Assembly (NCBI GenBank): GCA_018396655.1
Contig: JAGTQF010000005.1
Span: 1 to 62,344 of the forward strand
Source: Candidatus Bathyarchaeota archaeon
GTDB lineage: Archaea > Thermoproteota > Bathyarchaeia > Bathyarchaeales > DTEX01
Reading direction: 5' to 3'
Length of the DNA: 62,344 nt
Part shown: positions 11,502-45,023 of the stretch, one piece after another
Numbering within the stretch: position 1 is the first letter of the stretch
Layout of the letters: the number at the start of each line of letters is the position of its first letter
Notes under the pieces: model-generated
The model's input: the letters and a program-made list of their open reading frames with translations, nothing else
What the model was told of the DNA's origin: nothing
The model's database searches: none
Program-made: the position numbers and the translations under genes

Positions 11502-14096
11502 ATGAGGAAAGAATTGTTGTCTCTATTTATTTCGTTAGTGATAATTTTGGGTGCGCTGATGCCCGAAATGATTGTAGTGGCTCAACAGGAAGTTCCCTAC
11601 GGCCCCTGGGTTGATGAAATAATCTTCTTTGAGGAGAGCGATTATGGTAAGGTTGTTGAGATGTTAGAGAAAGGCGAAATGGATATATTCCTATTTACTA
11701 TAACTGACCCAGTCCTCTTCGATAGGGTGAAGAAGTCTCCGAATCTACAGTATAAGGTGGCATACGGATACTATAATGAATTAACCCTCAATCCAGCAGA
11801 GTTCAAAGTAGGCTTTAACCCATTCGTTAACCCGAGAATTAGGGAAGCCATGAACTACATAATAGACAGAGAACATATAGTTAATGAGATATATAAGGGG
11901 CTTGCTAAACCCAAGTGGCTGCCATTCATCTCTGGCTTTCCAGAATACGGTAGAATAGCTGACGTCATAAAGCTTCTCGAAGCTAAATATGCATATAATT
12001 TTGAGAAGGGCAAGGAGATCGTTTATGAAGAGATGGCAAAGATGGGCTGTGAAATGAAGGATGGCAAATGGCATTATAAAGACGAGCCGGTGGTAATAAA
12101 GATAATAATTAGGGTGGAAGACGAGCGCCGATTAATAGGCCACTACTTTGCCGACCAGCTGGAGAAGCTAGGCTTTAAGGTTGATAGGCTTGAAAGAACT
12201 AGGCGTGAGGCTGCCCCAATAATATATGCAGGTGATCCAACCGAGGGCTTATGGCATGTATACACAGGCGGCTGGGTTTCCACAGCAGTTTCAAGAGATG
12301 ATAGCGACGCTTATGGCTACTTCTATACGCCGCTGGGTTATGGATCTTTCATGCAATATGCTAAGCCAGACCCACTGTTCTACGAGGTTGCCAGCAGGCT
12401 CTGGAGGGCTGATTATGAGACTTGGGAGGAGCGCCAGGAGCTAATGGCTAAAGGCGCAGAGATGGCCCTTAAAGACTCACTTAGAGTTTGGATAGTGGAT
12501 CAGATATCACCATTTGTATCGGTTAAAGGCCTTATGGGAGCCGCAGACCTTTCGGGAGGCTACACAACAGCCGTCTGGAGCAGAACTGTCGGATGGGAGG
12601 GTAAAGTTGGAGGAAGTGTTAGAGCTGGGAGCTTAGGTGTTCTTGTTGATCCATGGAATCCTGTTGCCGGCACAAACTGGCTATACGACGCAATAATATT
12701 ATGGACTGTCAACGATTACGCCTTCCTAATTCATCCGTATCTTGGCCTTCCAATGCCAAATAGGGTCGTAGAATATACGGTTGAAGTTAATGAAACCGGC
12801 ATTCCAGTTCCATCAGACGTATGGTTTGACTGGGATGTTAAAGAGAAGAAAGTGATATATGCGCCTCCAGGCACGTATGCTAAGGCTAAAGTTAGAGGTA
12901 ACTATGGCAGCATACTTGGCAAAGTTAAATATCATGATGGTACAGTTATGACCCTGGCGGACTGGGTTGCCCTCTGGGCCTTCACTTTCGAGAGGGCGAA
13001 TAACCCGGAAAGCCCACTCTACGATGAATCAGCTGTGCCAGGCTTTAGAGAGTGGAGACTTAATTACAGAGGCTTCAGAATAGTTAGCGAGGACCCATTC
13101 ATAATAGAGGTTTACACTAATTACACCCATCCAGAAAGGGAATTTATTGCCAATTGGGCGTTAGGATGGCCTAATACGCCATGGCATGTGACGGCCATAG
13201 GCATTTTAGCTGAAGAAAAAGGCTTACTGGCATTCTCTGACTATAAGGCTAAGAAGACTGGGAGAGAGTGGATGAATTATATAGGTGGGCCAAGCCTAAG
13301 CATACTGGCCAGCGTCCTCGATGAAGCAATAAGGACTAAGTATATACCTCTACCTGAGCTCGCCAGCAAATATATAAAGCCCGAGGAGGCGGTAGCGAGA
13401 TACAATGCCTTAAAGAAATGGTATGAGGAGAGAGGACACTTCTGGGTGGCCTCAGGACCATTCTGGCTATATAAGGCAGACTTTACAGCCCACCAGGCAG
13501 TGGTAAAAGCATTCAGAGAATATTCATTTAAGGCCGATAAATTCGCTTGGCTGGCTGAGCCGCCGATACCTGAAGTCACAATAGTGCCGCCGGAGATGGT
13601 TGTTCCAGGAGTAGAAGCAACCTTTGAGATAAAGGTGTCGTATGCTGGAAAACCCTACCCATCAGACAGAATAGAGAGCGTAAAATACCTGATGCTTGAC
13701 GCCCAAGGTAACCTGCTTGGCAAAGGCTCGGCTAGTCTCATTGAAGAGGGCTCATATAAGGTTGTTATTCCGAGCTTAGAGACCGGCAAGATGAGTCCTG
13801 GAACATACACGTTTATGGTTGTTGCCTCAAGCAAAGACGTTGCGGTTCCAGCCATTAAAGAGGCTGGATTCATTGTCATACCGCCGATCACATACTTCCA
13901 GACGCTCCTCCAAACTATGAGAAGCGAGCTTGAAGCCAAGATATCCGCTGTTCAGTCCAGCGTAACTCCACTTGAGAGGACGATAAATGAGTTGCAGAGC
14001 TCTCTGAATACTGTAACTTTGATATCTACTGTTGCAGTTATAATAGCGATTGTAAGCATAGCGTTAAACTTCATCCTCATGAGATTCAGGAAATAA
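11502..14096 (+). CDS. ABC transporter substrate-binding protein, family 5 (Opp/Dpp type), C-terminally TM-anchored
   Basis: 864 aa. Signal peptide, SBP_bac_5-like core, C-terminal coiled segment plus TM VAVIIAIVSIALNFILM. Confidence 0.8.
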   Translation: MRKELLSLFISLVIILGALMPEMIVVAQQEVPYGPWVDEIIFFEESDYGKVVEMLEKGEMDIFLFTITDPVLFDRVKKSPNLQYKVAYGYYNELTLNPAEFKVGFNPFVNPRIREAMNYIIDREHIVNEIYKGLAKPKWLPFISGFPEYGRIADVIKLLEAKYAYNFEKGKEIVYEEMAKMGCEMKDGKWHYKDEPVVIKIIIRVEDERRLIGHYFADQLEKLGFKVDRLERTRREAAPIIYAGDPTEGLWHVYTGGWVSTAVSRDDSDAYGYFYTPLGYGSFMQYAKPDPLFYEVASRLWRADYETWEERQELMAKGAEMALKDSLRVWIVDQISPFVSVKGLMGAADLSGGYTTAVWSRTVGWEGKVGGSVRAGSLGVLVDPWNPVAGTNWLYDAIILWTVNDYAFLIHPYLGLPMPNRVVEYTVEVNETGIPVPSDVWFDWDVKEKKVIYAPPGTYAKAKVRGNYGSILGKVKYHDGTVMTLADWVALWAFTFERANNPESPLYDESAVPGFREWRLNYRGFRIVSEDPFIIEVYTNYTHPEREFIANWALGWPNTPWHVTAIGILAEEKGLLAFSDYKAKKTGREWMNYIGGPSLSILASVLDEAIRTKYIPLPELASKYIKPEEAVARYNALKKWYEERGHFWVASGPFWLYKADFTAHQAVVKAFREYSFKADKFAWLAEPPIPEVTIVPPEMVVPGVEATFEIKVSYAGKPYPSDRIESVKYLMLDAQGNLLGKGSASLIEEGSYKVVIPSLETGKMSPGTYTFMVVASSKDVAVPAIKEAGFIVIPPITYFQTLLQTMRSELEAKISAVQSSVTPLERTINELQSSLNTVTLISTVAVIIAIVSIALNFILMRFRK

Positions 14097-14231
14097 AGCT
14101 GGAAAATATTAAATTCTCTCCCTATATTTTTTAAGATTCAAGGCTGAAAAAGAAACTATACTCTATCTATACATGGATCATCTGGAAATTAGTTTTCTCT
14201 GATAGGAGAAAAAGGAAAACTTTAAAAGATA

Positions 14232-15326
14232 GTGAAGAGAAGGATAAAAAAGTTGATAAAGATGAGCGTTAAGGGCCCCATACTCTTTATAGTTAAGAGG
14301 GCTATTGCGTTATATTTGATAGTAGTTCTCTCTGTCTACATAACGATCGTTATAGCTAACTTAGGAGGATATGTAGACAGAATAACGCAAGCTCAAATTC
14401 TAGAGGATATAACATTTACAATTAAAAGGGATCCTCAGTATAGAGGTCTCCCGCCAGAGGAGGTAGATCGAATAATAAGGGATACTTATGAATTGGAGCT
14501 TAAGAAACTGGGTTTAGATACGCCTTTCATAGTGAGGAGCTTCCGCTACTTAGTAAATGGATTAACATTAGATTTGGGTAGAGCGCTGTACTTAACCAGT
14601 GATACAGGCTCTAGGCAGGTTAAGCTAATAATACTTGAGAGGCTGCCGCAGACAGTGATGCTATTTACTACAGCTAGCGTCCTTAATTTCTTCATCCACC
14701 TCTTCTTAGGCTTATATTTATCGAGGCATTATGGAGGAAAGCTTGATAAATTATTTATCGCGTTATCCCCAACATCTATAGTTCCAGGATGGCTTTACGG
14801 TCTCTTTTTAATAATGATATTTGCTTCTATTTTAAGAGTGCTCCCATATGGCGGGTATGTGGATGTACCACCTCCAGATGATCCCGTAAGCTATGGCCTC
14901 AGCGTCTTAAAGCATATGATTCTACCATTATCTTCATGGATAATCTCCGGCTTCTTTATGGGAGTCTATGGCAGCAGAACATTCTACCTAATATTTTCGA
15001 CAGAAGACTATGTTACAGTAGCTAAAGCGAAGGGGCTTCCGCCAAGAATTATAGAGCGTCGATATATACTTAGACCAGCCCTCCCACCCGTCATAACTAG
15101 CTTCTCTCTCGGTCTTATAGGCTCATGGGGAGGAGCAATAATAACGGAGACGGTCTTTAATTGGCCTGGTCTAGGAAAAGTCATGCGTGATGCCATTAAC
15201 TCAATGGACACCCCAGTGATAGTAGGTGAAGTTATAATTTACGCCTATCTACTTGCGATCACTGTGCTGCTGTTAGATATCCTATACCTATTTATTGATC
15301 CGAGAATAAGGGCGAGGTTTAGGTGA
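14232..15326 (+). CDS. ABC transporter permease (OppB/DppB type)
   Basis: 364 aa, multi-TM. The motif region DYVTVAKAKGLPPRIIERRYILRPALPP is typical of the family. Confidence 0.85.
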   Translation: MKRRIKKLIKMSVKGPILFIVKRAIALYLIVVLSVYITIVIANLGGYVDRITQAQILEDITFTIKRDPQYRGLPPEEVDRIIRDTYELELKKLGLDTPFIVRSFRYLVNGLTLDLGRALYLTSDTGSRQVKLIILERLPQTVMLFTTASVLNFFIHLFLGLYLSRHYGGKLDKLFIALSPTSIVPGWLYGLFLIMIFASILRVLPYGGYVDVPPPDDPVSYGLSVLKHMILPLSSWIISGFFMGVYGSRTFYLIFSTEDYVTVAKAKGLPPRIIERRYILRPALPPVITSFSLGLIGSWGGAIITETVFNWPGLGKVMRDAINSMDTPVIVGEVIIYAYLLAITVLLLDILYLFIDPRIRARFR

Positions 15327-35706: not shown

Positions 35707-36249
35707 TTGACCCTTAACACGCTGCTTGAAAGGAAAACCCAAGTACTTATTGAGCTAAGAAACTATAAAGTTCTAGGAAGGGAGGAAGTTAAGGATGGCA
35801 TACTGACCGAGGTTGAGGATGTCGAGGGGAAGAAGATACTTATCTGGACAACCTCGATAACCGATGCTATAGGCGTTAAACATGTTAATCAAATGGCGAA
35901 ATATATGAGCTCAAAAAATATTGAGAACGGCATAATAGTCAGCGAAAAATACACGCAGTCAGCCAAATCCCTAGCTCGAAAAAACAATATTGAGCTAATT
36001 CCACAAGATTTTCCATCATTTAACATATTTAAGCACTATCTAGTTCCAAAGCATGAAGTCCTCTCACCTGAGGAGAGAAAGGTCGTTTTAGAGAAGTATC
36101 GTATTGAACCATACAAGCTGCCGCGCATAAAAACCTCTGATCCAATTATACGGGTTATTGGGGCGAAGCCCGGCGACATAGTGAAGATAACTAGGCGCAG
36201 TCCAACGGCCGGAGAGAGCGTCTACTACCGTTATGTTGTCGAAGGTTGA
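35707..36249 (+). CDS. rpoH: RNA polymerase subunit H/Rpb5 homologue with ~100-aa N-terminal extension
   Basis: 180 aa, TTG start. The C-terminal [69 protein letters not shown] is classic RpoH. Confidence 0.85.
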
Positions 36250-36250
36250 A

Positions 36251-36487
36251 TTAAATAAGCTTACCCTTAGCCTTCCCCCTCAGCTCATATAATATGACTA
36301 GAGCTTCTCCTAGAGGAATACCTAGCCTCGCAGCAAGCTCTCTAGGCGATATTTCAGGCTTCTCTCGAAGTATCTTCTCCTCAACATAGGTCTTATGGTA
36401 CCTGTACATTATCATTGAATGGACTGTTTCGACAAGTATAGGCCATAATGGGTCATTCACATACTTACTCAGATCATCCTCCTCCAT
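36251..36487 (-). CDS. small hypothetical protein with C-terminal HTH-like segment
   Basis: 78 aa. ISPRELAARLGIPLGEALVILYEL. Confidence 0.35.
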   Translation of the reverse strand: MEEDDLSKYVNDPLWPILVETVHSMIMYRYHKTYVEEKILREKPEISPRELAARLGIPLGEALVILYELRGKAKGKLI

Positions 36488-36563: not shown

Positions 36564-36962
36564 TTAGGGAGGTTTAAAGAAGTATCTGGGCCACTGGGGC
36601 CATGTTTGCGGTATATCCACTTTGAAGTCGATTTCAAGGGTCATGCCTATCTTTAAGTCTTCAGGCTTTACTCCCTGAATTATGCCGGGAAGGCGGACAC
36701 CTTCGTCGAGCTCAACTATGCCAAAAATATATGGAACCAGATGCTGGAACTTCTCTGGAGCAACATGTATCACCGTATATGTCAAGAGCTTACCCCTTCC
36801 CTTAAGCTGAATCCACTTCAAACTGGTTGATAGACAATTTGGGCATAGCGGCCTCGGTGGAATAAGGATCTTCCCGCAATTCTCACACTTCACAGCCATA
36901 ATCTTCTTCTCAGCTATAAACCTGTAGAATTGCTCTATGGTGAATTGTGCGGCTTCACTCAA
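36564..36962 (-). CDS. DUF35 Zn-ribbon/OB-fold protein (thiolase/HMGCS scaffold family)
   Basis: 132 aa. CENCGKILIPPRPLCPNCLS zinc ribbon followed by an OB-like region. 4-nt gap from thiolase. Confidence 0.8.
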   Translation of the reverse strand: MSEAAQFTIEQFYRFIAEKKIMAVKCENCGKILIPPRPLCPNCLSTSLKWIQLKGRGKLLTYTVIHVAPEKFQHLVPYIFGIVELDEGVRLPGIIQGVKPEDLKIGMTLEIDFKVDIPQTWPQWPRYFFKPP

Positions 36963-36966
36963 CCTC

Positions 36967-38139
36967 TCACCCCCTACGGTATATGTGAACTATACATGTC
37001 GCTCCACTTCCACCTAAATTATGCGTTAAACCAATCTCACAGTCATCCACTTGTCTCTTGTCTGCTTGGCCAGTTAGCTGGAGGAAAATTTCATATAGTT
37101 GAGCTACGCCGGTTGCGCCGACAGGATGACCCTTAGCCTTAAGCCCACCGCTGGTATTAACTGGTAGTGAGCCATCTAGTGTTGGGGCTCCACTCTCAAT
37201 AAACTTCCCACCCTCGCCAGGATTACAGAAGCCCAGATCCTCATAGGCGATTATCTCAGCTATCGTGAAACAGTCATGTACCTCAGCGACATCGATGTCC
37301 TTTGGGCTTAGGCCAGCCATGTCATAAGCTTCCTTAGCAGCTATTCTAGTGGCTTTTAGGCTTGTGAGATCATCCCGTTCATATAACCCTATAGCATCAG
37401 TTCCGTGGCCGGAGCCAATTATATAGACTGGCGTATCAGTGTACTTTCTAGCGATATCCGGTCTGGTCAGAATTGCGCAGCTAGCTCCATCTGAAATTAG
37501 GGAGCAGTCGAAAAGCTTTAATGGTTTAGCGATAATTCTTGAGCTTAAAACCTGCTCAACGGTAACTTCTCTTTGCATATGGGCCTTGGGGTTTAGCGTG
37601 CCGTTATGGTGATTTTTAACTGCGACAAGGGCCATCTGCTCTTCAGTTGTCCCATACTTATGCATGTGGGCTGTCGCCATAAGGGCGAAGAGTGCTGGAA
37701 AGGTTGCACCATTCCACTGCTCAAGCGGGAAGTCTGAAGCCATAGCTAAATACTCGGTAGCCTCAAGAGTGGTTCTATTCGTCATCTTTTCGAAGCCGCC
37801 AACCATCACAACATCACATAGCCCCGAGATTATCGCAAATAATCCATATCTTATCGCCGCACCCGACGATGCGCAGGCAACCTCAACCCTCACGGATGGC
37901 GCAGGCAATATGCCAGCCCAATCAGACATTATTGGGGCAGAGTGGCATTGATGCTCAAAGGCCTCACTCATGTTGCCCACTATAAGGGCCTTAATATCCT
38001 TTTTTGGATCTAGGTTTGGGCACGTATCAAAAGCCTCTTTAACAGCCTCTGCAAACAACTCCCTGCTAGAGAAGCCATCCCTCTTACCGAATTTAGATAA
38101 ACCCGCTGAGACTATCGCGGCTAGAGGTCTGCCCTTCAA
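36967..38139 (-). CDS. archaeal thiolase (acetyl-CoA C-acetyltransferase)
   Basis: 390 aa. Active-site VEVACASSGAA, NTSGGLKAKGHPVGATG, GGSGATC. Confidence 0.9.
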   Translation of the reverse strand: MKGRPLAAIVSAGLSKFGKRDGFSSRELFAEAVKEAFDTCPNLDPKKDIKALIVGNMSEAFEHQCHSAPIMSDWAGILPAPSVRVEVACASSGAAIRYGLFAIISGLCDVVMVGGFEKMTNRTTLEATEYLAMASDFPLEQWNGATFPALFALMATAHMHKYGTTEEQMALVAVKNHHNGTLNPKAHMQREVTVEQVLSSRIIAKPLKLFDCSLISDGASCAILTRPDIARKYTDTPVYIIGSGHGTDAIGLYERDDLTSLKATRIAAKEAYDMAGLSPKDIDVAEVHDCFTIAEIIAYEDLGFCNPGEGGKFIESGAPTLDGSLPVNTSGGLKAKGHPVGATGVAQLYEIFLQLTGQADKRQVDDCEIGLTHNLGGSGATCIVHIYRRG

Positions 38140-38232: not shown

Positions 38233-38751
38233 TTAACGCCGCCTAGTGACGCTCGCTTGCCCCTCTTTAATCGCGCTTATGGTATCCTCCGTCCTCCTAA
38301 TGCCTAACTGAGTTATTCGGTACTCTCCCTCAGAAACCTTCTCTACTAATCCATCCTCAATTAAATCCGGTATATCATTGCTTATTGTTTTCCTTGCCTT
38401 TCCAGTCAATTTTGAGAGCTCGCTTACGGACAGCGTGTCCTTCGGAAGTTTCCCAATTCTATTGCCGATATAAGCGCCTAAGAGGGCTAGGCATATTGCG
38501 TTTTTGGCTGATAAGTTAATTTCACGCCTTATGAAAGGGCCATCCTCAGTTATCTCTATAATTCCGGCTATGTTGTTTATGATGCTTGCTATATCAGGTG
38601 TGTAAGTTATTTTCTGGACTATTTCGATAGCCGGACATATTTTAGCCAAAAACCTCAGTATAGATTCGAGGACTTGGTTGACGCCTCCTTCAAAGTCCAC
38701 CTTAACTTCGCCAAACTCTAAATGAACCTTTACGCTATTCTTCTCACTCAA
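38233..38751 (-). CDS. uncharacterised winged-helix protein, paralogue A
   Basis: Start set at TTG 38751 (gives MSEKNSVKVHLEF..., parallel to paralogue B's MSEENT...), preceded by GGAGG and overlapping the stop of B by 8 nt. C-terminal wHTH LSVSELSKLTG...LIEDGLVEKVSEGEYRITQLG. Confidence 0.6.
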   Translation of the reverse strand: MSEKNSVKVHLEFGEVKVDFEGGVNQVLESILRFLAKICPAIEIVQKITYTPDIASIINNIAGIIEITEDGPFIRREINLSAKNAICLALLGAYIGNRIGKLPKDTLSVSELSKLTGKARKTISNDIPDLIEDGLVEKVSEGEYRITQLGIRRTEDTISAIKEGQASVTRRR

Positions 38752-39316
38752 CTCTACCCTTTTCCTCCAGCTTAATCTTTGGTAGCACCTCATCTAAAAA
38801 GTATTTTATGCCTAACGTTGTCACTCTATACTCTCCACGCCCAACCCTCTCAACTAAACCCATATCAGTCAGCTCGCTTAAGCGGGCTGCAACCGTCCCG
38901 CTCTTACCGCCAGTTAAGGCCATTATCTCCGAAGTTGATAGAGAGTCTCTCTCCAATCGACCGGTCTTGTAGCCAATATAGGCTCTTATGAGGTTAAGCA
39001 TAATAACATTTCTATCCCCGCCAAGCCTCTCCCGTGGAACAACTATGACAGGTCCCTCCGGTGTGAACGCTATGAGATCTTTCACGCTTACTAAAAGATT
39101 TTCCAGGTCTATTGTGAGGGTTAGCTGAGACGCTAAATCGTAAGTTGGCAGAACTCTACCCATAAAGCCGAAGAAAGCCCTTAATACCTCATCAGGCTTG
39201 CCGGAGAACCTAGCTTCAACATCCTTATATTTTACGGTTAACTCCAAGTTCGCCTCTCCACAGCCCATAGCCAACAGACCCTTAAAAATACATATAGTAG
39301 TATTCTCCTCACTCAT
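38744..39316 (-). CDS. uncharacterised winged-helix protein, paralogue B
   Basis: 190 aa. Same architecture as A and D. LSTSEIMALTG...LTDMGLVERVGRGEYRVTTLG, EVLPKIK tail. Confidence 0.6.
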   Translation of the reverse strand: MSEENTTICIFKGLLAMGCGEANLELTVKYKDVEARFSGKPDEVLRAFFGFMGRVLPTYDLASQLTLTIDLENLLVSVKDLIAFTPEGPVIVVPRERLGGDRNVIMLNLIRAYIGYKTGRLERDSLSTSEIMALTGGKSGTVAARLSELTDMGLVERVGRGEYRVTTLGIKYFLDEVLPKIKLEEKGRVE

Positions 39317-39383
39317 TAAAAGATTTTGGCAGAGAATAGATTAAAGAATCACTTAATATCCTCTGGCGGCTATAAGAATTTAG

Positions 39384-40127
39384 GTGAAGAGAATGTCTAA
39401 AATTCTTCCTAGGCGCTTAAGCTTCTCTAAGATATGCGATATCTTAGTTGCCTACTTAAATGCTGGTGCAGATAAAGAGTATGTCGGCGTAAGCGAAGTT
39501 GCGGAGAAATCAACTGTTACACTACATAATATCAGCCGCAATAACGGTTTTCTTAAGAGCTGGGGTTTCATAGAAGAGAGCGGTAAGGAGCAGGGAAAAT
39601 ATAAGCTGACTCGTGAGGCTGCTGAGTTCGCTTACGCATATAAAATAGACCCTGAAGGTGACACTACTAGGCGATTGCTGAGAAATATCCTGTGTAAGGA
39701 GGAAGCGCTTCTAAGATTCGTTGAGCGGATGGAGAAGGAGAGTATGGACAGAGACTCCGCGTTAGTGGAGCTGCCGAGGGTTATCGGCGACTTAAGGGCA
39801 GATAAAGTTGGACTTAATGCTTTCCTAGATCTAATCGCATACGCCTTTCAATTAGACTGGTTATACGCCTCCACTAAACCTTCCCCACCCAAAAAGATTA
39901 CTATGCCTGGAGAGGGCAGGGTTGCTAGGAAAACTGTTAGAAGGGCAGAGAGCAAATCTTTAATGCCGCCTAGAGCAATAGTCGAACCGAGAGCAACGAT
40001 CTCAATAAATTTAGCTATAAGCCCTGAAGTAACGCCAAACATGTTAAAGGAGTATATTAAGGCCATGCTTAAAGCATACGACGAGTATTTTCAGGAGAGA
40101 GTTGAGGGGGCTAAAGCTAACGATTAG
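39384..40127 (+). CDS. uncharacterised protein with N-terminal winged helix, basic linker and C-terminal beta-alpha module
   Basis: 247 aa. VGVSEVAEKSTVTLHNISRNNGFLKSWGFIEE...GKYKLT wHTH-like. PPKKITMPGEGRVARKTVRRAESK basic stretch. Divergent from B with 67-bp spacing. Confidence 0.55.
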   Translation: MKRMSKILPRRLSFSKICDILVAYLNAGADKEYVGVSEVAEKSTVTLHNISRNNGFLKSWGFIEESGKEQGKYKLTREAAEFAYAYKIDPEGDTTRRLLRNILCKEEALLRFVERMEKESMDRDSALVELPRVIGDLRADKVGLNAFLDLIAYAFQLDWLYASTKPSPPKKITMPGEGRVARKTVRRAESKSLMPPRAIVEPRATISINLAISPEVTPNMLKEYIKAMLKAYDEYFQERVEGAKAND

Positions 40128-40608
40128 CAGCCTCCTTAAGCTTAGGCAACACCTCCTCCTCTACCCAGCGCTCACCCTTTGGGCTTAAGGCCCACTCAGC
40201 CCTTCCCGGAATCGGCTTAAAAACTAAGCCACGCTTAGCCATTTCATTCAGCCTAGAAGAGACCTGCAATTTTATTCCTGAGTATTCTAGGAGCCGCCTT
40301 ATGGTTGACGGCTTGCTGCATCTGTTTTTAGAGAAGTATAAGGTTAGGGCAATAGCTTCATATTGGGTGATTCCACTAGCATCCTTAAGAACTAGAATTG
40401 GCCCCTCTTCCGTAACCTTAACTATGCCCTCATACTCCTTATTCGTGCTCTGCGAAAGCATCCTTAAAACAATTCTTTCAAGCTCTACAATAAGGTTTTC
40501 GGGGAAGGAGTTTATTGCCGTAACTACCTCATTTATAGTTGAACCTTCAACCACTATTTTACCGAATGATGTCTTTATTTCCGCCTGAATTTTAATCAAA
40601 CAAGACAA
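40117..40608 (-). CDS. uncharacterised winged-helix protein, paralogue D
   Basis: 163 aa. VTEEGPILV motif, LNEMAKRGLVFKPIPGRAEWALSPKG wing, EVLPKLK tail. 11-nt convergent overlap with 39384..40127. Confidence 0.6.
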   Translation of the reverse strand: MSCLIKIQAEIKTSFGKIVVEGSTINEVVTAINSFPENLIVELERIVLRMLSQSTNKEYEGIVKVTEEGPILVLKDASGITQYEAIALTLYFSKNRCSKPSTIRRLLEYSGIKLQVSSRLNEMAKRGLVFKPIPGRAEWALSPKGERWVEEEVLPKLKEAANR

Positions 40609-40709: not shown

Positions 40710-42638
40710 TTAAGCCTTTTTAAGTTCCTCTAAGAGCTTCTCCCTCAAGATCTTGTTAACGGTCTCCGGCTTAACCCTGCCTCTCAGATCTCTCATTATT
40801 ATGCCCATCAACGCTCCGAGCGACCCAATTCCTCTCTCTACAACCAGACTCCTATTTTTCTCTATATACCCATCTATCAGCGTCTTTAAGTCATCATCCG
40901 ATATCATAGTTAATCCGAGCTCTTTTATAGCGTCGCTTGGAGTAGCCTCTTCATGCTCTGTAAGCCACTTAATTATTTCAGGTATCGCCTCCTTAGATGT
41001 CTTCTCTAAGCCAACAAGCCTGAACGCCTCAATTATCTTCTCATCGGGTATAGCGTCAAGGTTCACTCCCTCCCTCCTTAAAGCCTTAAATGTCTCCGTG
41101 AGCGTCGCAGCCACAAACGTCGGCGCAACTCCAGTCTCCTTAACTATTACCTCAAAGAGGTCGAGATACTCGGAATCAGAGAGCTGTCTTGCAAGCTTCT
41201 CGTTTATACCATATTTTTCCATTAATCTTCTCACGGTGACATCTGGCGGCTCCGGCAATTTCTCTTTTAATCGCTCCAGGTAATCGCGGGTTATTTTTAC
41301 TGGCGGTACATCTGTTTCAGGGTACATTCTAGCGGCTCCAGGCCTCGGCCTCATATACCTTGTTGTGCCATCGGGATTGGCTGCACGCGTCTCCTCCGGA
41401 ACCCCTTTTAATGCTTCACGAGCTCTTTCTATGACAGCCTTTAGGGCGTCCTTGGCGTTCTCAATTTTATCAGCGACCAGAACGATAGCATCCTCCTCAG
41501 AGGCGTTCATCCTTCTCTTTAATTCAGATATCTCCTCCTCTGAAACGCCGTAGGCTCTAAGCTCATCCGTATGGAGTATCCCTCCAACCCTACCCCAGAA
41601 CTTCGCCCTATCTGATAGTTCGCCGCCGAACCTTAAGCCTGGTATAAGTTCGAGGCCTAGCAGACCGGAGAATTTTGGTAGCTTAACGGCTAGCACTCTT
41701 CCATCTCTACTTATAGCTCTTTTAAGTACCTGACATTTGGTCCCCGTAAAAATCTCTGTAACGTCGAAAATCTCTTCTTTTAGGTCTTTCTCTTTCACTC
41801 CTCTCCTTATTAGCTCGTCACGGATCTTTAGAAGGTTTATTTGGCGCTGGACCTCATACTCAACAACCTTAGAGATCAGTTCAAGCTCCTGGACGCCTTT
41901 TATCTCAACTAGGGCGCCGCCTCTAATAGATATATTCAGGTCTTGTCTTATCGTTCCAATGCCACGCTTAACTCTTCTTGTAGCCCTCAGTATTCTGCCG
42001 ATTGCAAGAGCAACCTTCTCAGCTTCCTCCGGCGTATTTATCACTGGACCTGTTGTGACCTCAACAAGGGGTATGCCAAGCCTATCAATTCTATATCGCA
42101 CTAGGAGACCATCCTCACCCATCTTTCTCGCAGCATCTTCCTCAAGACTTATATGCTGTATAGGTATAGTCTTACCATCAACTTTTATCGAACCATTCAA
42201 TGCGACGACGCAAGTTCTTTGAAAGCCAGTTGTGTTTGACCCGTCTATAACTATTTTACGCATAACATAGATCTCATCCACTGGCTTGGCATTCATCATA
42301 AGCGCTATGATTAGAGCTATTTCCAGAGCCTCGCGGTTAATCTCGTGGGGCGGCTCCTCATCCATCTCCACAAGGCAGGACGTCTCGCTGTTTGCTTCAT
42401 AAAGAATCTTCACACCCTTCTGGAACTCAAAGTAGGCTGCTGGATCTATTTGACCGAGTTCACTCTGCGTCGGCCTTAGTCTCCGGAGAAACGTTATTTC
42501 CGGGTCGCCCTTAAAAAGCTGAGGCTTACATTTACAGAAGAGCTTCTCCCGCGTTGCAAGCTGCTGGTGGCATTCTAAACCAACTTTAAGATCAAGCGCG
42601 CCATAATCAATCTTCATTAAATCTACCCCCGAATCCAT
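40710..42638 (-). CDS. gatE: Glu-tRNA(Gln) amidotransferase subunit E
   Basis: 642 aa. LKVGLECHQQL and GatB/E core plus C-terminal YqeY-like tail. The true start may be Met-8 (MKIDYG). Confidence 0.9.
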   Translation of the reverse strand: MDSGVDLMKIDYGALDLKVGLECHQQLATREKLFCKCKPQLFKGDPEITFLRRLRPTQSELGQIDPAAYFEFQKGVKILYEANSETSCLVEMDEEPPHEINREALEIALIIALMMNAKPVDEIYVMRKIVIDGSNTTGFQRTCVVALNGSIKVDGKTIPIQHISLEEDAARKMGEDGLLVRYRIDRLGIPLVEVTTGPVINTPEEAEKVALAIGRILRATRRVKRGIGTIRQDLNISIRGGALVEIKGVQELELISKVVEYEVQRQINLLKIRDELIRRGVKEKDLKEEIFDVTEIFTGTKCQVLKRAISRDGRVLAVKLPKFSGLLGLELIPGLRFGGELSDRAKFWGRVGGILHTDELRAYGVSEEEISELKRRMNASEEDAIVLVADKIENAKDALKAVIERAREALKGVPEETRAANPDGTTRYMRPRPGAARMYPETDVPPVKITRDYLERLKEKLPEPPDVTVRRLMEKYGINEKLARQLSDSEYLDLFEVIVKETGVAPTFVAATLTETFKALRREGVNLDAIPDEKIIEAFRLVGLEKTSKEAIPEIIKWLTEHEEATPSDAIKELGLTMISDDDLKTLIDGYIEKNRSLVVERGIGSLGALMGIIMRDLRGRVKPETVNKILREKLLEELKKA

Positions 42639-42644
42639 TAGGCC

Positions 42645-43985
42645 TTAAATCTTGGGAGCTTCTATGGGCTCTATCGTTCTCTCAGAGATCTCGTTTGCAA
42701 TATTTGTTAACATAAGTCTTTTAGCTTCGTCTAAATTTTTGGCTTGCGCAAGACACCACATCATCTTAACGAGCGCGGTTTCGGCAAGCATATCCTCTAA
42801 TGGAAGCACGCCCATGGCCAGCAGATCCCTGCCATTAGAGTAAACGTTCATGTTCACGCGCCCCCAAATGCACTGTGATGTCATGGCTACAATTACGCCC
42901 TTATCGATAGCCCTTTTAATGGCTGGGAAACATTCTCGGCGAACGTGGCCCAATCCAGTTCCCTCAAGGACTATCCCCCTGTAACCTTCAGAAACATACC
43001 AGTCGATTACCCTAGGGTCCATTCCCGGATAAAACTTTATTAATGCAACTCTATCATCAAAGTTCGGCTTTAAAATAAGCTTACGTTCCGGGTCTCTGGG
43101 TCGGTAATTATTCTCGATCATATAGATGCTCCTATCTACGACTCTAGCCAGCGGCTTAGCATTCACGGTCTTAAATGCATCCCTGCGGCTTGTATGACAC
43201 TTTCTAACTTTAGTTCCCCTATGCAAAATTACCGACTCATCTGAAGGGGTTTCATGCATCGCCACCGCTACTTCAGCAAACGGCGCCCTAGATGCTGCTA
43301 AAACGGCTCCTATTAAGTTAATAGCGGCGTCAGAGCTTGGCCTATCCTCAGACCTCTGAGCGCCCACAAATATTACTGGAACTGGGAGATTCTGCAGGGC
43401 GAAGCTTAATGCTGCTGCCGAATATCCCATTGTGTCGGTTCCATGGGCTATGACAACGCCGCAAACGCCCCTAGAAATATGTTGGGCAACGGCCTCAGCC
43501 ATAGCTGTCCAGTGTTTTGGGGTTAAGTCTTCGCTGAAGACGCTGAATAATATTTCAGCATCTATGAGGGCTATGTCTGCCAGCTCGGGGACAATACTGT
43601 ATAGGTCGCCTGCCGAAATAACTGGTCTAACCGCTCCAGTCCTATAGTCAACTCTGCTAGCTATCGTGCCGCCAGTGCTTAAAATTATAACTCTTGGCAG
43701 ATCCGCCTTCTGTTCAGGGGGAAGGGGTGGAATAAATGCTGGCTTAGCTTCCATGCCAACCCTTTCTATTCTTGTTGCTGGCGTGATTTCAACGCCAATA
43801 TTGTAGCCCGACTTAATCTTTATAACTATATGTTTGTCGTCGCCATACTCTGATCTAGGAATCAGAATTCCTTCGAAGCACTCCTCACCTCTAATTATTC
43901 GTATTAAATCCCCAACCTCAGCTCCCGCTTCAAGAAGGACTTTTAAGGCCAGCCCCCTATATCCCGGAAGCTTTCCGCTCATCAC
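42645..43985 (-). CDS. gatD: Glu-tRNA(Gln) amidotransferase subunit D (asparaginase-like)
   Basis: 446 aa. ILSTGGTIAS, HGTDTM asparaginase motifs. Immediately upstream of gatE. Confidence 0.9.
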   Translation of the reverse strand: MMSGKLPGYRGLALKVLLEAGAEVGDLIRIIRGEECFEGILIPRSEYGDDKHIVIKIKSGYNIGVEITPATRIERVGMEAKPAFIPPLPPEQKADLPRVIILSTGGTIASRVDYRTGAVRPVISAGDLYSIVPELADIALIDAEILFSVFSEDLTPKHWTAMAEAVAQHISRGVCGVVIAHGTDTMGYSAAALSFALQNLPVPVIFVGAQRSEDRPSSDAAINLIGAVLAASRAPFAEVAVAMHETPSDESVILHRGTKVRKCHTSRRDAFKTVNAKPLARVVDRSIYMIENNYRPRDPERKLILKPNFDDRVALIKFYPGMDPRVIDWYVSEGYRGIVLEGTGLGHVRRECFPAIKRAIDKGVIVAMTSQCIWGRVNMNVYSNGRDLLAMGVLPLEDMLAETALVKMMWCLAQAKNLDEAKRLMLTNIANEISERTIEPIEAPKI

Positions 43986-44074
43986 GCCTACCCTTACTAT
44001 AATATCTGACCAATGTTATAAAAAGATGATTAAAATGTGATTATGGCAATTTATGTGCTGAAAACATCAGAATC

Positions 44075-44359
44075 TTATGAGAGTATTTTATAGACTTTAT
44101 CGCCCTCCCTAACTCTCTGGTTAACCTTAAGCCCTACACTCTGCCCGCTATACGCGACATTAACATTTTTATGCTCTATTTGCATAGACTCAACTACTTG
44201 CTCAAAATTTGTTGTTGACCCCCTTATTAGGATTCTATCGCCTACTGAGAGAGTGTCGGTTAAATTGACTACAGCAACACCTATCCTAGTGAAGTAATGG
44301 GTTACTCTGCCAACTTCCTTTAACTCTGGCTCAGACATGGATTCTTTCACCATAAACAA
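44075..44359 (-). CDS. small beta-barrel protein, EF-Tu domain-2-like
   Basis: 94 aa. GRVTHYFTRIGVAVVNL...VGDRILIRG...GQSVGLKV pattern. Confidence 0.5.
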   Translation of the reverse strand: MFMVKESMSEPELKEVGRVTHYFTRIGVAVVNLTDTLSVGDRILIRGSTTNFEQVVESMQIEHKNVNVAYSGQSVGLKVNQRVREGDKVYKILS

Positions 44360-44445
44360 AAATATTAAATATGCTCTTAAATGATTTACGATATATGATT
44401 TGTCAGGGAATTTAAGAGAAAAAGGCGCTATCCCAATTTTACATA

Positions 44446-44916
44446 CTATGATAGGCTCTCAAGATCTTTCAGACTTATTCCGAGTTCCTTCGCCTTCTTA
44501 ACTAATTCTTCAAGTTCCGCCTTAAGCTTCCTTTTCTCCTCCTCCTTTGATAAGAATATTGTAAAGGTTTCTAGTGGCCTTACTTCCATTATCTCTATTG
44601 TTGCTGAGAGCGGTTTAAATTCTCCCTTAGGTCCGGTCTCATAGTTTATTGTAAGCCTTGCTGGCTTCTCGGCGGCATTTCGCTTATTTATCTCCTCGAC
44701 TAGCCTACCAGCCAAATCAACCCAAATCTTCTTATTTTCCTCTTTAACTTCAGCCGGGGCTCCAGTATAGAATGTTGAGTAAAACCACCTTTTAGCTCTG
44801 AAGAGTGCGCTCTTGCATGTGGGAGTTATTCTAAATCTCTGAACAGGCATAGGTGCCCCCAAAATAACGATTATAAAACAATGTATATAAATATATCGAG
44901 ATATTGATTGCGACAC
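44446..44916 (-). CDS. hypothetical protein with C-terminal coiled-coil
   Basis: 156-aa ORF. The likely start is Met-23 (coordinate 44850, MPVQRFRITP...). C-terminal KEEEKRKLKAELEELVKKAKELG. Confidence 0.4.
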   Translation of the reverse strand: MSQSISRYIYIHCFIIVILGAPMPVQRFRITPTCKSALFRAKRWFYSTFYTGAPAEVKEENKKIWVDLAGRLVEEINKRNAAEKPARLTINYETGPKGEFKPLSATIEIMEVRPLETFTIFLSKEEEKRKLKAELEELVKKAKELGISLKDLESLS

Positions 44917-45023
44917 CGCTTAAACAATACGTGGCCATCATTAGTCTTCTTCCATGGAATATATTATGTGCGCAAATATGTCTATGATACTAAAGTTTAA
45001 TTTGCTTTTCAAAGTCTCTTAAG

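What the first reader, a model, noticed from the sequence alone, without database searches (positions are those of the whole stretch)
38233..40608. Compact four-gene cluster of mutually related, uncharacterised winged-helix proteins inserted between housekeeping genes
Seen: three minus-strand proteins (A 172 aa, B 190 aa, D 163 aa) share one collinear architecture that I cannot assign to a named family.
- An N-terminal beta-hairpin plus helix: VKVHLEFGEVKVDFEGGVNQVLESI / LELTVKYKDVEARFSGKPDEVLRAF / IKTSFGKIVVEGSTINEVVTAI.
- A conserved turn: ITEDGPFI / FTPEGPVI / VTEEGPIL.
- A helix: AICLALLGAYIG / VIMLNLIRAYIG / AIALTLYFS.
- A C-terminal winged helix: LSVSELSKLTG..LIEDGLVEKVSEGEYRITQLG / LSTSEIMALTG..LTDMGLVERVGRGEYRVTTLG / ..MAKRGLVFKPIPGRAEWALSPKG.
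- B and D end in EVLPK(I/L)K.
B and A are translationally coupled: the TTG start of A lies inside ...GTTGAGTGA, an 8-nt overlap, and is preceded by GGAGG.
The fourth gene, C, is divergent from B by 67 bp and convergent with D with an 11-nt overlap. It inverts the order: an N-terminal winged helix, a basic linker, and a C-terminal ATISINLAISPEVTPNMLKEYIKAML that resembles the N-terminal beta-alpha module of A, B and D.
No enzymatic domain is visible. The cluster sits between thiolase and gatDE, which are core genes.
Inference: this may be a hetero-oligomeric DNA-binding assembly (regulatory, chromatin/segregation-like, or a mobile-element or defence-associated module) that has expanded by local duplication. 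It is the most system-like unannotatable block in the window.
Basis: partly seen in the sequence, partly recalled or inferred. Interest (0 to 1): 0.7.

Follow-up and report, generated by a model that had tools for sequence, protein, structure and literature searches.

The report
Conserved archaeal winged-helix cluster near NurA-HerA
The four small genes are real and are a vertically inherited core cluster of Bathyarchaeia: uncharacterised winged-helix proteins whose relatives sit between gatDE and the DNA-end-resection genes nurA-herA in two archaeal classes, so they are probably a multi-subunit DNA-binding factor and not a mobile or defence insert.

Summary
All four genes exist at the stated coordinates.

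**Relatedness.** A and B are clear paralogues (33% identity, E 7e-31). D is a distant full-length member of the same family. C shares only a winged helix (wHTH) with them. Its C-terminal resemblance to the A/B/D N-terminal module is not statistically supported.

**Not an island.** Composition is normal. The order A<B<C>D<gatE<gatD recurs in about 45 Bathyarchaeia species. Conservation approaches that of GatDE (B 71%, C 64.5%, GatE 74.5% mean identity).

**No family assignment.** Pfam, NCBIfam, PDB sequence search and Foldseek give only generic wHTH matches. The N-terminal domain matches nothing.

**Best reading (inferred, about 0.4).** This is a hetero-oligomeric wHTH DNA-binding assembly: a B/A core pair, D as an accessory paralogue, and C as a divergently transcribed partner or regulator. 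It is ancestrally coupled to HerA-NurA. Ordinary local transcription factors remain a serious rival. A defence or mobile origin is unlikely for this locus.

The parts
38233..38751 (-). Gene A (172 aa from the TTG start; an alternative ATG lies at 38793). It has an N-terminal beta-hairpin plus helix domain and a C-terminal wHTH. It is a paralogue of B.
   Evidence: ORF. BLASTP to B, E 7e-31. Weak wHTH hits at residues 99-152. Orthologues lie next to B in every locus that has B. A start overlapping the B stop is conserved.
38744..39268 (-). Gene B (174 aa from the conserved ATG at 39268; the ORF extends to 39316). It is the best-conserved member, with the layout bb-a ... a-bb, then wHTH, then a C-terminal helix carrying the F-x-D-E-V-L-P-K-I-K motif.
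   Evidence: 182 homologues, the named ones all Bathyarchaeia or Thermoproteota MAG proteins, those listed 60-99% identical. Alignment A1. AF2 model with pLDDT 83. Conserved CAT start column. Mean identity 71% against GatE 74.5%.
39269..39392 (.). Divergent B/C intergenic region with back-to-back AT-rich TATA-like elements. One is a conserved TTAAA(A)GATTTT block at about 39313-39326. A G-rich SD-like element precedes the C start.
   Evidence: Sequence. Alignment of 39 orthologous intergenic regions. Promoter function is inferred, not shown.
39393..40127 (+). Gene C (244 aa; the ORF begins at GTG 39384). It has an N-terminal wHTH with an invariant H-N-I-S-R-N-N-x-F recognition helix, a four-helix domain with invariant G-D-L-R-A-D-K-V-G, a disordered basic linker (162-200), and a C-terminal strand plus long helix.
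   Evidence: 180 homologues, those listed 56-100% identical, with no Pfam domain. Alignment A2. AF2 model with pLDDT 82. Always adjacent to gatE or D in 45 species.
40117..40608 (-). Gene D (163 aa, TTG start). It is a divergent full-length member of the A/B family. It is co-directional with gatDE, absent in some Bathyarchaeia lineages and duplicated in others.
   Evidence: ORF. BLASTP to B, E 1e-7. hhalign 99.8% to A1. Weak similarity to Nitrososphaeria X (60%, E 8.8e-5). Presence and absence pattern.
40710..43985 (-). gatE (40710-42638) and gatD (42645-43985). These are the invariant neighbours of the cluster in Bathyarchaeia and of X-Y in several Nitrososphaeria.
   Evidence: Pfam GatB_N/GAD/GatB_Yqey and GatD_N/Asparaginase. 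Synteny.

Best explanation
A, B, D and C are a vertically inherited core chromosomal module of Bathyarchaeia that encodes a multi-subunit winged-helix DNA-binding assembly.
- **Core pair.** B and A are translationally coupled paralogues and form the core pair, probably a heterodimer.
- **How it binds.** Each has a previously undescribed N-terminal beta-hairpin/helix domain, which is the likely assembly interface, and a Csa3/MarR-like wHTH plus a C-terminal helix, which is the likely DNA-binding part.
- **Other members.** D is an accessory paralogue of the same build. C is an unrelated wHTH-plus-helical-domain protein, transcribed divergently from the B-A promoter region. It acts as a partner or regulator.
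- **Functional link.** The module is the local form of an ancestral neighbourhood, gatDE - X/D/C - Y/(B,A) - Z - nurA-herA, shared by Bathyarchaeia and Nitrososphaeria. Its most likely role is therefore tied to the HerA-NurA DNA-end-resection machine. It could control expression of those genes, or it could act as a DNA-targeting or accessory factor.

**Shown:** gene reality, paralogy, conservation, synteny, lack of any family assignment, and the wHTH fold.

**Inferred:** DNA binding, hetero-oligomerisation, and the functional link to HerA-NurA.
For: - **Paralogy:**
- **Structure:** AF2 models show a wHTH plus extra domains. Foldseek finds only wHTH DNA-binders such as MarR, AspA and TFE-alpha. 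PADLOC places the wHTH of A and B closest to Csa3-type wHTH, E 2e-8 to 3e-8.
- **Core status:** the named homologues are Bathyarchaeia or Thermoproteota MAG proteins, and 45 species share the order. Mean identities are B 71, C 64.5, A 59 and D 56, against GatE 74.5 and GatD 76. Composition is normal.
- **Coupling:** A and B always co-occur, with starts overlapping or abutting the B stop. Fusion P0241 carries a kinase followed by B-like and A-like parts.
- **Link to nurA-herA:**
- **Shared N-terminal module:** it is detectable between the A/B/D family and X/Z (hhalign 72%, E 3.4e-5). X and Z are paralogues (97.8%).
Against: - No experiment or multimer model supports complex formation or DNA binding.
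- wHTH domains can also mediate protein-protein contacts.
- In the window's own lineage nurA-herA and Z are not within the 62 kb. The link is therefore historical and comparative, not local.
- Some lineages keep C next to gatDE without A/B nearby (L035, L036, L043, L044). D is dispensable in many lineages.
- A gene divergent from its neighbour (Z versus nurA, C versus B-A) is also the classic layout of a plain local regulator.
- Conserved gene order between sister classes may partly reflect inheritance rather than function.
Confidence: 0.4

Rival explanations
1. They are ordinary, independently acting wHTH transcription factors of MarR/PadR/ArsR style. Each forms a homodimer, autoregulates, and regulates neighbouring operons. 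For example, C would regulate B-A, and Z would regulate nurA-herA. The cluster would be a historical accretion of duplicated regulators.
For: - Only generic wHTH similarity is found.
- Source annotations read 'ArsR/MarR family regulator'.
- The layouts are divergent regulator-target arrangements with short AT-rich intergenic regions.
- C stands alone beside gatDE in some lineages.
Against: - There is no ligand-sensing or classical dimerisation domain.
- Conservation is unusually high for specific regulators, with B close to GatE.
- A-B co-occurrence and coupling are obligatory.
- Three or four paralogues with a shared N-terminal module are kept together across two classes.
Confidence: 0.3
2. 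The module works with GatDE in Gln-tRNA formation and translation. It would be a scaffold, a tRNA- or RNA-binding accessory, or a dedicated regulator of gatDE, rather than acting in DNA repair.
For: - gatDE adjacency is invariant in the 45 Bathyarchaeia loci and also occurs in Conexivisphaerales, Nitrosocaldus-like genomes and L064.
- D and X are co-directional with gatE. In L059 the X start overlaps the gatE stop.
Against: - The link is lost in L063, L053 and L065, where Z-nurA-herA is retained.
- No RNA-binding domain is detected.
- GatDE is known to function without such partners (established knowledge).
Confidence: 0.1
3. It is a defence, toxin-antitoxin-like or mobile-element module domesticated in the chromosome.
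For: - Distant family members are fused to a DUF488 domain (P0318, E 2e-26) and to a putative PD-(D/E)xK-like region (P0292, P0305). They also lie beside a PbeA/XPB-like helicase (L055).
- Bacterial C-like proteins sit next to a protein with an R-x4-H, HEPN-like motif (L052). Another lies in an unannotated stretch of an actinobacterial contig (L051) that I did not analyse further.
Against: - For this locus there are no PADLOC system hits and no viral relatives.
- Composition is normal.
- The genes are single-copy and syntenic across a class, under strong purifying selection.
- No toxin or effector gene is present.
Confidence: 0.05

Closest known systems
MarR/PadR/ArsR-type winged-helix transcription regulators
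   Same: Both have a wHTH of about 65 residues followed by a C-terminal helix. These are the best Foldseek hits, for example MftR 8ylg and BpsR 6pco, with E of about 4e-3 to 3e-2. Pfam gives weak hits to HTH_5, MarR_2 and HTH_20.
   Different: - No match reaches a Pfam gathering score, except a borderline DIP2311-like_C hit for B (27.4 against 27).
- The MarR dimerisation helices are absent.
- An extra N-terminal domain of about 75 aa has no Pfam or PDB match.
- The proteins occur as 3-4 clustered paralogues.
Csa3 / CARF-wHTH regulators (CRISPR-associated)
   Same: These are the closest sequence match for the wHTH of A and B (PADLOC Csa3 and CARF3 models, E 2e-8 to 7e-4; TIGR01884 E 7e-4).
   Different: - The match covers only the wHTH.
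- The N-terminal domain is too small (about 75 aa) and is not matched by the CARF portion of the models.
- No cas genes are nearby.
AspA, the pNOB8 centromere-binding protein (PDB 4rs8, 5k5q)
   Same: It is a small archaeal wHTH plus C-terminal helix that works in a multi-protein DNA-handling machine. Foldseek TM (target-normalised) is 0.71 for B, with 29% identity over 90 columns, and 0.66 for C. The PDB profile hit has E 0.066.
   Different: - E-values are not significant.
- No ParA or ParB partners are present.
- AspA lacks the N-terminal domain of A/B/D and the helical domain of C.
HerA-NurA operon partners (Mre11-Rad50 in thermophilic archaea)
   Same: Like mre11-rad50, the genes are kept next to nurA-herA across lineages. 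Background on HerA-NurA comes from PMC3326311 and PMC5715905, as listed.
   Different: - There is no sequence or fold relationship to Mre11 or Rad50.
- Nitrosocaldus is reported to encode Mre11-Rad50 as well (PMC5797428), so this is not a simple replacement.
Hetero-oligomeric winged-helix assemblies (ESCRT-II Vps22/25/36; kleisin-associated ScpB/KITE proteins)
   Same: The concept is the same: several paralogous WH proteins encoded together form one complex.
   Different: The analogy comes from memory only. No such structure appears among the top 50 Foldseek hits, and no ESCRT-III/Vps4 or SMC genes are adjacent.

Membership tests
MarR family (PF01047/PF12802) | The sequence reaches the Pfam gathering score for MarR or MarR_2. 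| tested here: not met
   A scores 16.9 bits and B 14.1 bits against a cutoff of 27. C and D give no hit.
MarR family (PF01047/PF12802) | N- and C-terminal helices form the homodimer interface around a central wHTH. | tested here: not met
   The AF2 model of B has a beta-hairpin/helix N-terminal domain instead. Foldseek alignments to MarR proteins have rmsd of about 15 A outside the wHTH.
Csa3 / CARF-wHTH | An N-terminal CARF (Rossmann-like) domain precedes the wHTH. | tested here: not met
   PADLOC and TIGR01884 matches cover only profile positions from about 145 to 215, which is the wHTH. The N-terminal domain profile A3 matches no Pfam family.
PadR-like / AspA centromere-binding proteins | Significant sequence or structure similarity, and association with a ParA/ParB-type partition cassette. 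| tested here: not met
   Foldseek E is 0.014-0.022. The hmmsearch E is 0.066. No ParA or ParB is called in any of the loci examined.
Known anti-phage defence systems (PADLOC-DB) | Component proteins match system models beyond a generic DNA-binding domain. | tested here: not met
   A and B give only wHTH-level hits. C has one weak hit and D has none.
New 'bba-wHTH' family (A/B/D of Bathyarchaeia, Y of Nitrososphaeria), defined here | Full-length collinear similarity: N-terminal bb-a ... a-bb domain, the E-G-P turn, wHTH, then a C-terminal helix. | tested here: met
   Profile A1 finds 503 representative clusters with E up to 1e-3. Most of the listed best 150 are 160-175 aa and matched end to end. 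A, B and D score 9e-60 to 4e-87 against the profile. Y proteins hit A and B at 1e-12 to 1e-18.
New 'bba-wHTH' family, wider superfamily with X and Z | A shared N-terminal beta-hairpin plus helix module. | tested here: inconclusive
   hhalign of the A/B/D module against the X/Z N-termini gives probability 72%, E 3.4e-5 over 28 columns. D against X gives 60%. The HMM search alone does not find X or Z. The C-terminal tail of C is not significant (E 0.39).
HerA-NurA associated gene set | Conserved adjacency to nurA-herA in independent lineages. | tested here: met
   Adjacency is seen in 8 Bathyarchaeia loci, 4 Nitrososphaeria lineages and L053. It is not met in the window itself.

The most novel reading that the evidence does not exclude
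The A/B(Y), D(X), Z and C proteins are subunits of a previously unrecognised winged-helix complex specific to Bathyarchaeia and Nitrososphaeria. It would physically cooperate with the HerA-NurA helicase-nuclease, for example as a DNA-end or lesion recognition and loading factor. It would be built from a new beta-hairpin/helix hetero-oligomerisation domain that is also reused in nuclease-, DUF488- and kinase-fused conflict or signalling proteins.
Probability: 0.15. Interest if true: 0.8.

Novelty: new variant of a known kind. Interest (0 to 1): 0.55.

Why it matters
HerA-NurA end resection has been studied almost only in Sulfolobales, Thermococcales and Deinococcus, where the partners are Mre11-Rad50. 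Little is known about how it is targeted or regulated in the globally abundant Nitrososphaeria (ammonia oxidisers) and Bathyarchaeia.

A set of 3-4 strongly conserved small winged-helix proteins, kept next to nurA-herA and gatDE across both classes, gives concrete candidates for that missing layer. It also defines a new N-terminal domain family. The proteins are small and soluble-looking, so they can be tested by co-expression, EMSA and structure determination even though the organisms are uncultured.

If they turn out to be plain local regulators, the result still annotates several hundred 'hypothetical' protein clusters.

Tried and rejected
- **Named family.** Pfam, NCBIfam, PADLOC, PDB sequence profiles and Foldseek-PDB on AF2 models of B and C all gave only generic wHTH matches.
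- **N-terminal domain alone.** Profile A3 against PDB sequences and Pfam found nothing significant. A ubiquitin-like beta-grasp or an AbrB-like swapped-hairpin reading of the bb-a...a-bb pattern stays speculative. I could not test it because model coordinates cannot be cropped.
- **CARF.** Rejected. Only the wHTH part of the Csa3 models matches.
- **ESCRT-II or KITE analogy.** No structural or contextual support. The ESCRT survey paper PMC10936438 does not mention these proteins.
- **C-terminus of C as the beta-alpha module.** Not supported, although the bacterial C-like protein in L052 ends in a hairpin-plus-helix of similar appearance.
- **Island, mobile or viral origin.** Rejected for this locus.
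- **NurA, HerA, X or Z within the 62-kb window.** None found.
- **Literature.** Searches for any description of these proteins or of wHTH genes beside nurA-herA found nothing relevant.
Full report
**1. What is in the sequence**

- A is on the minus strand. It is 172 aa from a TTG at 38751, and an alternative ATG lies at 38793.
- B is on the minus strand, 38744-39316.
- C is on the plus strand, 39384-40127.
- D is on the minus strand, 40117-40608.

Reading the DNA confirms two junctions. The B stop and the A TTG start overlap by 8 nt in GTTGAGTGA, with GGAGG upstream. C and D converge with an 11-nt overlap.

Pfam confirms the flanks:
- a thiolase (36967-38139);
- a ChsH2/DUF35 OB-fold protein (36564-36962);
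- GatE (40710-42638);
- GatD (42645-43985).

Orthologue alignments and a conserved start-codon column in 39 aligned intergenic regions move two starts. B begins at M17 (39268, 174 aa) and C at M4 (39393, 244 aa). The divergent intergenic region is therefore about 124 bp. It contains AT-rich TATA-like blocks, including a conserved TTAAA(A)GATTTT element.

**2. Are the four proteins related?**

A and B are unambiguous paralogues, with 33% identity over 155 residues and E 7e-31. D is a distant but full-length relative. It scores E 1e-7 to B and 4e-4 to A, and profile-profile comparison gives 99.8%.

C is not detectably related. BLASTP gives E 0.92. hhalign aligns only the two wHTH domains, at probability 7.6%. 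The suggested similarity between the C-terminal strand-helix of C and the N-terminal module of A/B/D is not significant (E 0.39).

**3. No named family fits**

Pfam and NCBIfam give only sub-threshold wHTH hits for the C-terminal halves of A and B, and nothing useful for C and D. PADLOC shows that the wHTH of A and B is closest to the Csa3 type (E about 2e-8), but only over the wHTH. PDB sequence profiles give nothing significant.

The AF2 models are reasonably confident.
- B has pLDDT 83. Its layout is a beta-hairpin 8-23, helix 25-39, a disordered loop, helix 55-61, hairpin 66-75, wHTH 85-149 and helix 151-170.
- C has pLDDT 82. Its layout is wHTH 11-72, four helices 74-152, a disordered stretch 162-200 and helix 215-242.

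Foldseek against the PDB returns only wHTH regulators with E of 4e-3 or worse. These include MarR-type proteins, AspA, TFE-alpha and the dimerisation domains of O-methyltransferases. A profile of the N-terminal 80 residues matches nothing in the PDB or Pfam.

**4. It is a core, vertically inherited module and not an island**

B and C each have about 180 homologues. The named ones are Bathyarchaeia or Thermoproteota MAG proteins annotated as hypothetical or generic wHTH proteins, at 56-100% identity among those listed.

A scan of one genome per species found C in 45 Bathyarchaeia species, always next to gatE or D. ORF classification shows the order A<B<C>(D<)gatE<gatD throughout.

Mean identity to the window proteins over 27 complete loci is as follows.

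| Protein | Mean identity (%) |
|---|---|
| A | 59 |
| B | 71 |
| C | 64.5 |
| D | 56 |
| GatE | 74.5 |
| GatD | 76 |

This is near-housekeeping constraint.

GC (0.439 against 0.442) and tetranucleotide composition are unremarkable. No relatives occur in viral contigs.

D is dispensable in many lineages, where C abuts gatE. It is duplicated in B26-type genomes. A few lineages keep C beside gatDE without A/B nearby. A and B always co-occur. A start codon for A overlaps the B stop by 4-14 nt, or follows it within 21 nt, in most loci.

**5. The wider family and the key context**

A profile of the A/B/D family finds 503 representative clusters in 1.84 billion proteins, 181 of them with E below 1e-10. 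Members are named from Nitrososphaerales, Conexivisphaerales, Nitrosocaldus and Geothermarchaeota.

X and Z are small proteins with the same N-terminal beta-hairpin/helix, followed by a different wHTH.
- X and Z are paralogues (hhalign 97.8%).
- Their N-termini align to the A/B/D module (72%, E 3.4e-5).
- D resembles X weakly (60%).

The window's four genes are therefore one local form of an ancestral neighbourhood: gatDE - X/D/C - Y/(B,A) - Z - nurA-herA. In the window's own lineage Z, nurA and herA are not nearby, and none is found in the 62 kb.

**6. Other contexts of the family**

- Distant members are fused to DUF488 (P0318, E 2e-26), to a putative PD-(D/E)xK-like N-terminal region (P0292 and P0305, no Pfam hit), or to a protein kinase followed by B-like and A-like parts (P0241).
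- One such fusion lies beside a PbeA/XPB-like helicase and several other small wHTH proteins, in what looks like a conflict island (L055).
- Two bacterial proteins are distant C homologues. One lies next to a protein with an R-x4-H, HEPN-like motif. The other lies in an unannotated stretch of an actinobacterial contig that I did not analyse further.

The domains are thus reused in conflict systems. That does not describe the Bathyarchaeia locus.

**7. Interpretation**

*Shown:* the genes are real. A, B and D are paralogues. The fold is a winged helix plus a novel N-terminal domain. There is strong purifying selection, class-wide synteny, and repeated adjacency to nurA-herA and gatDE in two classes.

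*Inferred:*
- The proteins bind DNA. This follows from the fold, and from the invariant recognition helix H-N-I-S-R-N-N-x-F in C.
- They assemble into a hetero-oligomer. This follows from the tight coupling and obligatory co-occurrence of A and B, from several paralogues sharing one N-terminal module, and from a B-A fusion.
- They act with or on the HerA-NurA end-resection system, either as regulators of its genes or as accessory DNA-targeting subunits.

I put this at about 0.4. The main rival, at 0.3, is that they are ordinary local transcription factors. The divergent Z/nurA and C/B-A layouts fit that reading too. A GatDE-related role gets 0.1 and a defence or mobile role 0.05. Both are less likely.

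**8. Novelty**

No paper found in the held library describes these proteins or wHTH genes beside nurA-herA in these lineages. The wHTH itself is ordinary. The N-terminal domain, the multi-paralogue organisation and the cross-class neighbourhood appear to be undescribed. I therefore rate this a new variant of a known kind, of moderate interest.

Noticed in passing
window 35707-36249 (+): RNA polymerase subunit H (Rpb5_C, E 3e-33) carries an N-terminal domain of about 100 aa that matches the restriction-endonuclease fold (Mrr_cat E 8.5e-7; NA-iREase1). This gives a two-domain Rpb5-like protein. The same architecture appears in L004.
   Followed up: partly
window 36251-36487 (-): A 78-aa ORF abuts rpoH and has a weak HTH_24 match (E 2.6e-4). 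It may be another small DNA-binding protein.
   Followed up: no
L052 4968-6692 (Anaerolineaceae MAG): This is a bacterial distant homologue of C, 249 aa, with the same N-I-S-R-N-N-G-F-L helix, a disordered linker and a C-terminal hairpin plus helix. It is followed by a 321-aa protein with an N-terminal wHTH-like region, an R-N-A-A-D-H (HEPN-like) motif and a weak DUF4145 hit. It lies beside mutS.
   Followed up: partly
L055 1094-7119: This is a conflict-island-like locus of unknown taxon. A 376-aa fusion of a PD-(D/E)xK-like N-terminus with the A/B-type module lies next to a PbeA/ERCC3-like helicase. A 258-aa protein ends in a D-like wHTH with the ...V-I-P-K-L-R motif. Several other small wHTH proteins are present.
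   Followed up: partly
P0241, P0318 (representative proteins): These are natural fusions. P0241 is a Ser/Thr kinase followed by B-like and A-like segments that lack their beta-hairpin modules. P0318 is an A/B-type protein with a C-terminal DUF488. P0241 could be an assembly or gene-calling artefact.
   Followed up: partly
L063 10471-11214; L057 9491-10219: A conserved protein of about 245 aa with an HTH_3 (XRE) domain directly follows herA in two Nitrososphaeria lineages. It may belong to the same neighbourhood.
   Followed up: no
window 39313-39326 and orthologous loci: A conserved TTAAA(A)GATTTT block lies in the B/C intergenic region across Bathyarchaeia. An AT-rich block lies 20-30 nt upstream of the B ATG. 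These are likely back-to-back TATA boxes.
   Followed up: partly
window about 14001-15000 and 44001-45000: These are the lowest-GC kilobases of the window (0.374 and 0.378, against a mean of 0.44). They are also among the most deviant tetranucleotide windows. I did not examine them.
   Followed up: no
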